Shown here in pieces: positions 271-573 of a stretch of DNA of 4,414 nt. The DNA comes from a virus. Taxonomy: Duplodnaviria > Heunggongvirae > Uroviricota > Caudoviricetes. The stretch lies in the IMG/VR virus record IMGVR_UViG_2698536337_000012; one strand, written 5' to 3'. The number at the start of each line of letters is the position of its first letter. Position 1 is the stretch's first letter. The position numbers and the translations under genes are program-made. A model generated the notes under the pieces. That model saw only the letters and a list, made by a program, of their open reading frames with translations. It was not told where the DNA came from and did not search any database.

Positions 271-319
271 CGATGGAAAAAATTAAACTTATGGAATAAC
301 TGTTCACCACTGTTCACCC

Positions 320-352
320 TGCAATAAATGTCTTTTATATCAGTATATTATA
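320..352. promoter_or_regulatory. AT-rich tract (GCAATAAATGTCTTTTATATCAGTATATTATAG) between iteron groups; candidate DNA-unwinding element
   Basis: Local AT richness flanked by iterons. Function is inferred from origin architecture, not demonstrated. Confidence 0.3.
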
Positions 353-353
353 G

Positions 354-382
354 GGTGAACAGTTATTTATGAACTGTTCACC
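354..382. repeat. Perfect inverted repeat GGTGAACAGTT - 7 bp (ATTTATG) - AACTGTTCACC, formed by two opposed iterons
   Basis: Arms 354-364 and 372-382 are exact reverse complements. Likely a dimer binding site or cruciform-capable element inside the origin-like region. Confidence 0.85.
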
Positions 383-427
383 AAACTATTCACTGTTCAC
401 CTTTTTGATTCTTTATTGAGCTTTAAG

Positions 428-459
428 GGTGAACAGTGGTGAACAGTTGGTGAATAGTT
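428..459. repeat. Three head-to-tail ~10.5-bp units GGTGAACAGT / GGTGAACAGTT / GGTGAATAGTT (helical-phase iteron triplet)
   Basis: Direct tandem repetition read from the sequence. The ~10-11 bp periodicity would place the bound proteins on one face of the helix. Confidence 0.8.
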
Positions 460-573
460 TTTGTGAAACTGTTAACCCATTAACATCATGAATAAAAAGG
501 GAAAATTGCAAAAGGTGAACAGGTGAAGGGTTAAAATGCAAAAATTTTATTTTATTGCTGTGAGGTAAAGCCT

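What the first reader, a model, noticed from the sequence alone, without database searches (positions are those of the whole stretch)
300..530. Dense bipolar iteron array with an embedded perfect palindrome
Eight perfect and three degenerate copies of TGTTCACC within ~230 bp, arranged as two opposed groups, with one perfect 11-bp inverted repeat (354-382) and a helically phased tandem triplet (428-459). This is the P4 alpha-binding motif and the region sits right after the probable primase gene, as the P4 cis replication region does. The array also overlaps the likely promoter region of the 574-819/ssb operon (possible TTGCAA at 506-511 and TAAAAT at 532-537), so iteron binding could couple replication to expression of the downstream genes.
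Basis: partly seen in the sequence, partly recalled or inferred. Interest (0 to 1): 0.5.

Follow-up and report, generated by a model that had tools for sequence, protein, structure and literature searches.

The report
Replication origin of a phage satellite
The repeat cluster is real and is almost certainly the replication origin of a phage-parasitic chromosomal island (PICI) of E. coli, built from two mirror-image copies of the phage P4 origin; this type of origin has already been described and tested, so it is a well-formed but ordinary feature.

Summary
There are eight perfect TGTTCACC octamers at 301-521, against 0.13 expected for the window. Four degenerate copies lie at positions that are iterons in relatives. 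That makes 12 sites in 229 bp.

The gene ending at 270 encodes the winged-helix origin-binding domain of a P4 alpha-like helicase (PDB 1KA8, E=2e-22). TGTTCACC is the annotated P4 "ori type 1 repeat".

New detail: the array is two inverted ~105-bp modules (299-403 and 426-530). Each is co-linear with the six-iteron P4 ori core, not with crr. The layout is conserved directly after the helicase gene in 669 of 5,426 complete E. coli genomes, and in Klebsiella, Citrobacter, Tatumella, Oceanisphaera and Gilliamella. Iteron columns are 93% conserved and spacers 64%.

The tested origin of the PICI EcCICFT073 (Fillol-Salom 2018) has the same geometry, but with a different octamer (TGTCTACC) and a divergent binding domain.

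Best reading: this is a PICI origin where the island's helicase binds and self-loads, probably in both directions.

The proposed promoter is not supported. Its hexamers are 20 nt apart and the -35 is not conserved.

The kind is already known, so interest is low to moderate.

The parts
1..270 (+). 3' end of the island's replication initiator gene (SF3 helicase with a C-terminal winged-helix origin-binding domain; annotated 'DNA primase family protein' in relatives)
   Evidence: The 89-aa translation hits PDB 1KA8 (P4 alpha origin-binding domain) at E=1.9e-22. It is 51% identical to P4 alpha over this domain. Full-length relatives of 601-605 aa are 50% identical to P4 alpha residues 313-771.
299..403 (+). 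Origin module A. Iterons: 301-308 (+), 311-318 (+), AT-rich spacer, 354-361 (-), 375-382 (+), 387-394 (+, degenerate TATTCACT), 394-401 (+)
   Evidence: Aligns co-linearly with the reverse complement of the P4 ori core 9308-9415, 81/100 identical. Iteron offsets are 0, 10, 53, 74, 86, 93, against P4-type 0, 10, 53, 75, 86, 96.
319..353 (.). AT-rich spacer inside module A (77% A+T). It holds the least stable 25-bp duplex of window 1-1240 (328-352) and is a candidate unwinding element
   Evidence: It corresponds to the AT-rich stretch 9361-9395 of P4 ori. It contains the window's only match to the IHF core consensus, at 338-350, which is not significant on its own.
354..382 (.). Head-to-head iteron pair (the perfect 11-bp inverted repeat with a 7-nt spacer). 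It is the conserved junction between the lone reverse iteron and the forward triplet
   Evidence: The same junction is present in P4 ori and in all relatives.
402..427 (.). Central 26-bp AT-rich spacer (77% A+T) at the pseudo-dyad centre (~414.5), between the two inward-facing triplets. It is a candidate melting site
   Evidence: Its sequence is not conserved between relatives.
426..530 (-). Origin module B, the mirror image of A. Iterons: 428-435 (-), 438-445 (-), 449-456 (-, TATTCACC), 470-477 (+, TGTTAACC), AT-rich spacer 478-513, 514-521 (-), 522-529 (-, degenerate CCTTCACC)
   Evidence: Its reverse complement is 78/97 identical to module A and 74/102 identical to P4 ori. The stretch 427-484 aligns to P4 ori 9308-9367 in the + orientation.
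574..819 (+). Conserved 81-aa ORF of unknown function, the first gene after the origin. Its stop overlaps the ssb start
   Evidence: ORF list. PHROG 1231, unknown function, E=5e-49. No Pfam family. Annotated as hypothetical in relatives.
816..1238 (+). Island-encoded single-stranded DNA-binding protein (140 aa)
   Evidence: Pfam SSB, E=3.9e-16. PHROG 44.

Best explanation
The array is the replication origin of a Gram-negative phage-inducible chromosomal island (PICI).

The island's initiator is an SF3 (D5/P4-alpha type) helicase. Its C-terminal winged-helix domain is encoded at window 1-270. This domain recognises the 8-11 bp iteron (A)ACTGTTCACC.

Twelve iteron positions form two mirror-image six-iteron modules. 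Each module has the layout of the phage P4 ori core: two tandem iterons, a ~35-bp AT-rich spacer, one opposed iteron, then three tandem iterons one helical turn apart.

After the helper phage induces the island and it excises, initiator molecules fill the phased iterons on both modules. An AT-rich spacer then melts. Two helicase hexamers load in opposite orientations and replication proceeds in both directions. The downstream island SSB coats the unwound strands.

Shown here: the repeats and their significance, the homology of the binding domain, co-linearity with P4 ori, conservation of iterons over spacers, the position next to the initiator gene in many genera, and a single cluster per island.

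Shown by others for a co-linear homologue (EcCICFT073): the rep-ori fragment drives plasmid replication, and deleting the ori impairs it.

Inferred: binding of this initiator to these iterons, which spacer melts, double-hexamer loading, and who makes the primers. The island protein lacks P4's primase domains, so the host primase is the likely source.
For: Repeats:
- 8 perfect and 2 one-mismatch octamers in 221 bp; 0 of 200 shuffles reach the count.
- In the closest complete relative there are 11 perfect copies against 0.59 expected.

Initiator:
- The upstream ORF matches the P4 alpha origin-binding domain, 1KA8, at E=1.9e-22. It is 51% identical to P4 alpha there.
- The P4 GenBank record annotates the same octamer as 'ori type 1 repeat' in ori and crr.

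Layout:
- Module A is 81/100 identical to the P4 ori core and module B is 74/102 identical. Matches to the crr units are lower.
- Iteron offsets are the same to within 3 bp.
- A P4-like prophage ori is recovered by BLAST with window 297-410 (H55).

Conservation:
- The array lies after the initiator gene in 669 of 5,426 complete E. coli genomes.
- The same double module follows the homologous gene in Klebsiella, Citrobacter, Tatumella, Oceanisphaera and Gilliamella.
- Across 8 elements, iteron columns are 0.93 conserved (70/95 invariant) and spacer columns 0.64 (12/133 invariant), Mann-Whitney p=2e-22.

Island context:
- Relatives carry int, an alpA-type regulator, icd-like, DUF4222, the initiator, the array, orf81, ssb and capsid genes.
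- There is one cluster per complete island.

Function:
- The EcCICFT073 ori has the same 2-AT-1-3 | 3-1-x-2 geometry. Its pri-ori fragment maintains a ts plasmid, and deleting ori or pri abolishes or reduces this (PMC6092414).
- Octamer and binding domain change together. EcCICFT073 and L024 use TGTCTACC and have a domain only 33% identical.
- An island of this type is deposited as a closed 10.8-kb circle.
- A related island was sequenced from induced particles.

Analogy:
- SaPI Reps are self-loading helicases that bind iterons through a C-terminal winged helix, with iterons on both sides of an AT-rich centre (PMC9371898).
- A D5-type helicase forms head-to-head double hexamers on dsDNA (PMC12137749).
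Against: - There is no experiment on this allele. Binding of this initiator to TGTTCACC is inferred from P4, and the primary P4 papers are not in the held library.
- The window copy has four degenerate sites (387, 449, 470, 522). Two of these are better in relatives, so this copy could be somewhat weakened.
- The capsid gene of the same island carries a frameshifting 13-bp deletion, so the island may be decaying.
- The melting site cannot be assigned. The least stable duplex is the spacer inside module A (328-352). Next are the flanks 531-555 and 277-301, and only then the central spacer.
- P4 itself needs two separated iteron regions (ori and crr). A single compact site sufficing here rests on the EcCICFT073 experiment.
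Confidence: 0.85

Rival explanations
1. It is a crr-type auxiliary site (the P4 'cis replication region'). It would only enhance initiation at a separate origin elsewhere in the island, through initiator-mediated looping.
For: Its position directly downstream of the alpha-like gene is the position of crr in P4. crr units also carry type 1 repeats. Part of module B (472-527) aligns with the distal part of a crr unit.
Against: - Complete islands have one iteron cluster, plus one isolated octamer inside the rep gene.
- Both modules score higher against P4 ori (87 and 72) than against the crr units (22-58).
- crr is two direct 120-bp repeats with a different iteron order. Here there are two inverted modules.
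- In EcCICFT073 the rep gene plus this region alone suffices for plasmid replication.
Confidence: 0.05
2. Its main role is as an operator/promoter region. Initiator binding to the iterons would control transcription of orf81-ssb, with origin function secondary or absent.
For: The last iterons (514-529) lie 45 nt upstream of the orf81 start codon. No terminator is predicted between rep and orf81, so bound initiator could act as a roadblock to read-through. Iteron-binding initiators of many plasmids autoregulate (general knowledge).
Against: - There is no + strand sigma-70-like site in 200-900.
- The proposed hexamers are 20 nt apart.
- TTGCAA is TCTCAA in L001 and differs in L003, L005 and L011.
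- Gram-negative PICIs are described as transcribed unidirectionally from upstream (PMC6092414). Read-through from the rep operon therefore explains downstream expression without a local promoter.
- The conservation pattern (12 phased sites, P4 ori geometry) is far more elaborate than an operator needs.
Confidence: 0.07
3. It is a structural DNA element. A ~230-nt hairpin or cruciform, rather than protein-binding repeats, would be the functional feature, for example a single-strand origin or a recombination or packaging signal.
For: As single-stranded DNA, 295-535 folds into one long hairpin of -46.4 kcal/mol, z=-7.4 against shuffles. Rfam gives weak hits to long plant miRNA hairpins over the same span.
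Against: - The complementarity comes from the inverted iterons.
- The AT spacers of the two arms are no more alike within an element (mean score 0.36) than between elements (-0.24). They are much less alike than orthologous spacers (5.0 and 5.8). Pairing is therefore not maintained.
- P4-like satellites use a single, non-palindromic module.
- The Rfam hits are far below the gathering scores (32 vs 150 and 30 vs 249 bits).
Confidence: 0.02

Closest known systems
Replication origin of Gram-negative PICIs, tested in EcCICFT073 (Fillol-Salom et al. 2018, ISME J, PMC6092414)
   Same: It lies immediately 3' of the pri-rep gene and is followed by a small ORF and ssb. The geometry is the same 12-site, two-module layout, and the alignment is co-linear. 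The island gene order is the same. [quoted passage not shown]
   Different: The octamer here is TGTTCACC, against TGTCTACC in EcCICFT073. The binding domain is only 33% identical. This island carries a ClpP-protease/capsid fusion module, whereas EcCICFT073 has capsid plus decoration genes. This allele itself has not been tested.
Phage P4 ori (type 1 iterons bound by the alpha protein)
   Same: The octamer is identical. The six-iteron layout is the same, with offsets equal to within 3 bp. Module A is 81% identical over 100 aligned bases. The initiator is homologous, with a 1KA8-type binding domain.
   Different: - The module is present twice, head to head, instead of once.
- It lies after the initiator gene instead of between the sid and alpA operons.
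- There is no run of type 2 repeats.
- There is no separate crr.
- The initiator lacks the zinc-ribbon and Toprim primase domains of alpha.
Phage P4 crr (cis replication region)
   Same: It occupies the position just downstream of the alpha-type gene and consists of two ~100-120-bp iteron-bearing units.
   Different: The crr units are direct repeats separated by 60 bp, with iteron order <,>,>,>,AT,<,<. Here the units are inverted and follow the ori order. Alignment scores to crr are lower than to ori. P4 has a predicted terminator between alpha and crr; none is predicted here.
SaPI origins (Staphylococcus aureus pathogenicity islands)
   Same: The origin lies directly downstream of rep. Six to twelve iterons are split around an AT-rich centre, with opposed orientation. 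The Rep is a self-loading helicase that reads iterons through a C-terminal winged helix (PMC9371898).
   Different: SaPI iterons are penta- or hexanucleotides of unrelated sequence, and the helicase belongs to a different clade. The resemblance is one of logic; homology was not tested here.
Core origins of SV40 and papillomaviruses (SF3 helicase initiators)
   Same: [quoted passage not shown] This is also seen for the D5-type helicase of mpox virus (PMC12137749).
   Different: This is an analogy only. The binding domains and site sequences are unrelated, and assembly on this array has not been observed.

Membership tests
Gram-negative PICI replication origin | Lies immediately 3' of the replication initiator (pri-rep) gene | tested here: met
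   The stop codon is at 268-270 and the first iteron at 301. The same holds in L001, L003, L004, L005, L009 and L025.
Gram-negative PICI replication origin | Two sets of iterons flanking AT-rich DNA | tested here: met
   Six plus six sites surround a 26-bp spacer of 77% A+T, and each set has its own 35-36-bp AT-rich spacer.
Gram-negative PICI replication origin | Carried by an island with PICI gene order (int, alpA-type regulator, rep, ori, morphogenesis/packaging genes, one direction of transcription) | tested here: met
   The window shows only the rep 3' end, ori, orf81, ssb and protease/capsid. The complete order is seen in near-identical relatives L009 (array 99% identical) and L025.
Gram-negative PICI replication origin | The rep-ori segment replicates autonomously and ori deletion impairs it | not testable with these tools
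   Shown only for EcCICFT073 (PMC6092414), whose ori is co-linear but uses another octamer.
P4-type ori | Repeated octamer TGTTCACC (type 1 repeat) | tested here: met
P4-type ori | Six-iteron layout: 2 tandem, AT spacer, 1 opposed, 3 tandem (offsets 0, 10, 53, 75, 86, 96) | tested here: met
   Met twice. Module A has offsets 0, 10, 53, 74, 86, 93, and module B is its mirror image.
P4-type ori | Cognate initiator with the alpha C-terminal winged-helix origin-binding domain | tested here: met
   1KA8 at E=1.9e-22; 51% identity.
P4-type ori | Run of type 2 repeats (YCAYTTAAAG x3) beside the type 1 repeats | tested here: not met
   There are only three scattered one-mismatch matches in the window, against 1.9 expected.
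P4-type ori | Works with a second, distant iteron region (crr) on the same replicon | tested here: not met
   Complete islands L009 and L025 have a single cluster, plus one isolated octamer inside rep.
P4-type ori | Initiator carries an N-terminal zinc-ribbon and Toprim primase | tested here: not met
   P4 alpha has Zn_Ribbon_Prim and Toprim. The island protein has only D5_N, DUF5906 and Pox_D5, and its first 140 aa match no Pfam family.
P4 crr | Located just downstream of the alpha gene | tested here: met
P4 crr | Two direct ~120-bp repeats with iteron order <,>,>,>,AT,<,< | tested here: not met
   The two units are inverted and follow the ori order. Scores to crr are 22-58, against 72-87 to ori.

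The most novel reading that the evidence does not exclude
The Gram-negative PICI origin is an ancient head-to-head duplication of the P4 ori core. It replaces P4's looped ori-crr pair with one compact dyad that loads two helicases.

This PICI lineage keeps the exact P4 octamer and a 51%-identical binding domain. P4-like satellites and these PICIs in the same cell could therefore fire, titrate or block each other's origins, giving satellite-satellite cross-talk or incompatibility.

Specificity would be reset by swapping the wing of the binding domain. This is suggested by L022, which has the same helices, a different wing and a TGTCTACC-type iteron.

The 2018 paper regarded the PICI origin organisation as shared with 'no other known bacterial replicon', and regarded P4 and PICIs as independently evolved.
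Probability: 0.3. Interest if true: 0.45.

Novelty: already known. Interest (0 to 1): 0.25.

Why it matters
It fixes the annotation of a non-coding stretch found in about one in eight complete E. coli genomes: it is the origin of a mobile island that spreads virulence and defence genes.

It gives exact coordinates for 12 initiator sites that can be mutated or swapped.

It ties the PICI origin to the well-studied P4 ori at base-pair resolution. That suggests simple tests of origin specificity and of interference between two common families of phage satellites.

It does not reveal a new kind of system.

Tried and rejected
- A full-text search for the octamer returned only primer sequences.
- The primary P4 paper (Ziegelin 1993) is not held. 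P4 biochemistry is therefore cited from the GenBank annotation, from secondary papers and from general knowledge.
- Promoter idea: no + strand consensus site, 20-nt spacing, and a non-conserved -35.
- Terminator between rep and the array, as in P4: none found.
- Hairpin/cruciform idea: the fold is strong, but the arm spacers do not co-evolve.
- Rfam: only spurious sub-threshold plant miRNA hairpin hits over the dyad.
- DnaA boxes: none in the array.
- P4 type 2 repeats: none.
- IHF consensus: one match at 338-350, not significant on its own (52 of 200 shuffles).
- Which AT spacer melts: the stability profile does not single out the centre.
- Co-residence of P4-like elements and this PICI in one genome was not tested.
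- Octamer clusters in Bacteroidales and Actinomycetota MAG contigs (L010, L017, L019) have other layouts and were not followed.

Full report
**Observation.** The window contains eight perfect TGTTCACC octamers. They lie at 301, 311, 375 and 394 on the + strand and at 354, 428, 438 and 514 on the - strand. Two one-mismatch copies lie at 449 (-) and 470 (+). Ten of the 13 matches with at most one mismatch fall within 301-521. Shuffles give 3.5 for the whole 4.4-kb window, and none of 200 reaches 13. The repeat finder shows that the unit is really 10-11 nt, (A/C)ACTGTTCACC. It also recovers the perfect 11-bp inverted repeat (354-364 / 372-382) and the 10/11-spaced triplet at 428-459. Two further sites, 387-394 (TATTCACT) and 522-529 (CCTTCACC on the - strand), are degenerate here but are good iterons in relatives. 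There are therefore 12 sites. The region is 29-37% G+C, against 47-63% in the flanking genes.

**Anatomy.** The 12 sites form two modules. Module A (299-403) reads forward, forward, a 35-bp AT-rich spacer, reverse, forward, forward, forward. Module B (426-530) is its mirror image. The reverse complement of B is 78/97 identical to A (z about 13 against shuffles). The pseudo-dyad centre lies near 414.5, in a 26-bp spacer of 77% A+T. As single-stranded DNA the whole span folds into one long hairpin (-46.4 kcal/mol, z=-7.4). This also explains weak, sub-threshold Rfam hits to plant miRNA precursors.

**Neighbours.** ORF 1-270 is the C-terminus of a protein whose last ~80 residues match the solved origin-binding domain of phage P4 alpha (PDB 1KA8, E=1.9e-22).
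- Full-length relatives in E. coli (601-605 aa, annotated 'DNA primase family protein') are 50% identical to P4 alpha residues 313-771. That region covers the SF3 helicase and the binding domain.
- These relatives lack alpha's zinc-ribbon and Toprim primase domains. Their first 140 residues match no Pfam family.
- Downstream come a conserved 81-aa ORF of unknown function (PHROG 1231) and an SSB gene.
- Next is a masked stretch, then a ClpP-protease/major-capsid fusion.
- Near-identical relatives show the complete island: integrase, HTH/AlpA-type regulator, Icd-like protein, DUF4222, initiator, array, orf81, ssb and capsid genes. This is the gene order of Gram-negative PICIs, not of P4.

**Comparison with P4.** The P4 record annotates TGTTCACC as 'ori type 1 repeat', both in ori (9310-9413) and in crr (4291-4590). 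crr lies just downstream of alpha.
- Read on the reverse strand, the P4 ori core has iterons at offsets 0, 10, 53, 75, 86 and 96, with orientation >,>,<,>,>,>. Module A has 0, 10, 53, 74, 86 and 93 with the same orientations.
- Global alignment gives 81/100 identity for A against P4 ori and 74/102 for B. Scores are 87 and 72, against 22-58 for either module against the crr units in either orientation.
- BLAST independently links window 427-484 to P4 ori. It also links window 297-410 to the ori of a P4-like prophage, which lies between its sid-like and alpA genes (H55).
- The position is therefore crr-like, but the structure is ori-like and duplicated in inverted orientation.
- No run of P4 type 2 repeats and no DnaA box is present.

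**Conservation.** The 303-bp intergenic region is found in 669 of 5,426 complete E. coli genomes. In nearly every listed hit it sits at the 3' end of the initiator gene; the exception is a partial match to a P4-like ori. One pattern scan was run over one genome per bacterial species, looking for two iterons, a spacer and an opposed iterons. It returned 12 loci, which fall into three groups:
- **Double module.** Five loci (Klebsiella, Citrobacter, Tatumella, Oceanisphaera, Gilliamella) have the double inverted module of 218-229 bp directly after a homologous binding-domain gene.
- **Single module.** Four loci (Raoultella, two in Rosenbergiella, and one mislabelled MAG contig) have a single 102-104-bp module in P4-like context.
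- **Other layouts.** Three loci have different layouts.

In an alignment of eight double-module elements, iteron columns are 0.93 conserved (70 of 95 invariant). Spacer columns are 0.64 conserved (12 of 133 invariant), p=2e-22. The AT spacers of the two arms are no more alike within an element than between elements, and they are less alike than orthologous spacers. The dyad is therefore a consequence of iteron arrangement and not of selection for pairing, and the duplication is old. Complete islands contain one cluster only, plus a lone octamer inside rep.

**Link to experiment.** Fillol-Salom et al. [quoted passage not shown]
- They show that the EcCICFT073 pri-ori fragment maintains a temperature-sensitive plasmid, while pri or ori deletions do not.
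- I located EcCICFT073 in the CFT073 chromosome. Its origin aligns column by column with the window's array and has the same 2-AT-1-3 | 3-1-x-2 geometry.
- Its octamer is TGTCTACC and its binding domain is only 33% identical to the window's. P4 alpha, which shares the window's octamer, is 51% identical.
- A second CFT073-type island (L024) behaves the same way.
- A third type (L022) combines the window-like helices with a different wing, a TGTCTACC-type iteron and another layout.
- Octamer and binding domain therefore change together, as expected for a cognate pair.
- An island of the window's type is deposited as a closed 10.8-kb circular molecule.
- A related island was sequenced from induced particles.
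- Both observations are consistent with an active replicon.

**Mechanism.** This part is inferred. The initiator's winged-helix domain binds the phased iterons of both modules. An AT-rich spacer then melts, and two SF3 hexamers load in opposite orientations for bidirectional replication. The island SSB stabilises the unwound DNA, and priming probably falls to the host primase.
- This follows the SaPI model: a self-loading Rep, winged-helix reading of iterons, and iterons on both sides of an AT-rich centre (PMC9371898).
- It also fits head-to-head double hexamers of D5-type and SV40 helicases (PMC12137749).
- Which spacer melts cannot be decided. The least stable duplex is 328-352 inside module A, followed by the outer flanks and then the centre.

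**The promoter claim.** TTGCAA (506-511) and TAAAAT (532-537) are separated by 20 nt.
- The scan finds no + strand promoter-like site in 200-900 and no terminator after rep.
- The -35 hexamer is not conserved even in a 97%-identical relative.
- Read-through from the upstream operon is the simpler explanation for orf81-ssb expression. It is consistent with the unidirectional transcription described for these islands.
- A regulatory side-effect of initiator binding is possible but untested.

**Verdict.** The P4 link is right. The feature is the origin of a PICI rather than a crr, and its architecture is two inverted P4-ori modules. Origins of this class have been described and functionally tested, so novelty is low. 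The base-pair-level homology to P4 ori, and the possibility of cross-talk with P4-like satellites, are the only modestly new points.

Noticed in passing
window 3884-3990; L009 8957-9080 and 11497-11620: A ~110-bp intergenic module occurs after the capsid gene in the window. It is a terminator-like hairpin plus T-run, then CTCCTGG(T/C)GGGG.GGGCCTGTCCACGGGGCGG..GGCGCGGAAAAA.GCGCATTTTT and a CATCATCA run. In relative L009 it occurs twice. The second copy follows ssb, which is exactly the stretch masked by N in the window. The GGGCGG...CGCGG core loosely resembles the lambda left cohesive end, so it may be a cos-type packaging site or a regulatory repeat.
   Followed up: partly
window 3070-3071 (ORFs 2007-3152 and 3116-3874): The ClpP-protease/major-capsid fusion gene is split by a 13-bp deletion relative to the intact 629-aa gene of L009. 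The island in the window may be decaying, or the assembly may contain an error.
   Followed up: partly
L009 1065-2063 and 12404-13534: In E. coli 2013C-3342 the closest relative of this island sits inside the large terminase gene of a prophage, splitting it. That prophage carries its own protease/capsid fusion gene of the same kind. Integration of a satellite into a packaging gene of a possible helper would be worth a look.
   Followed up: no
L025 (NZ_CP148328.1, whole record): A closed 10,790-bp circular 'plasmid' of E. coli Z1323HEC0475 is a complete island of this type, with integrase, AlpA, initiator, array, protease/capsid and DUF1441. PICIs are said to have no plasmid state (PMC6092414). 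This is either an excised replicating form caught by sequencing or a stable episome.
   Followed up: partly
L022 2890-3245 (E. coli 126096): A third origin type follows a homologous initiator gene. It has paired GGTAGACAGTT iterons spread over ~350 bp in a different layout. The binding domain shares the window's helices but has a different, longer wing (KRAKCTKGPDKGRTITNV against KRKTKHGLRSNV). This suggests that the wing sets octamer specificity.
   Followed up: partly
L001 10480-12285; L009 6199-8016: The island 'DNA primase family protein' has no recognisable primase domain. It has only D5_N, an SF3 helicase domain (DUF5906) and the Pox_D5-type binding domain, and its 140-aa N-terminus matches nothing in Pfam. 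The annotation name is probably misleading.
   Followed up: partly
window 338-350: TATCAGTATATTA is the only match in the window to the IHF core consensus WATCARNNNNTTR. It sits in the AT spacer of module A, next to the lone reverse iteron. It is perfect also in L003 and one mismatch off in several relatives. It is not significant alone (expected 0.29; 52 of 200 shuffles).
   Followed up: partly
L009 6738-6745; L025 4264-4271: One isolated perfect TGTTCACC lies inside the initiator gene, at the same position (539 nt from the start) in two relatives. P4 is reported to have a second replicon inside alpha (reference list seen). Relevance here is unknown.
   Followed up: no
L010 (Alistipes MAG contig), L017 (Prevotellaceae), L019 (Actinomycetota MAG): Clusters of 4-6 perfect TGTTCACC octamers with other spacings occur on contigs assigned to distant phyla. 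They could be unrelated replicons with a similar iteron, or mis-binned contigs.
   Followed up: no
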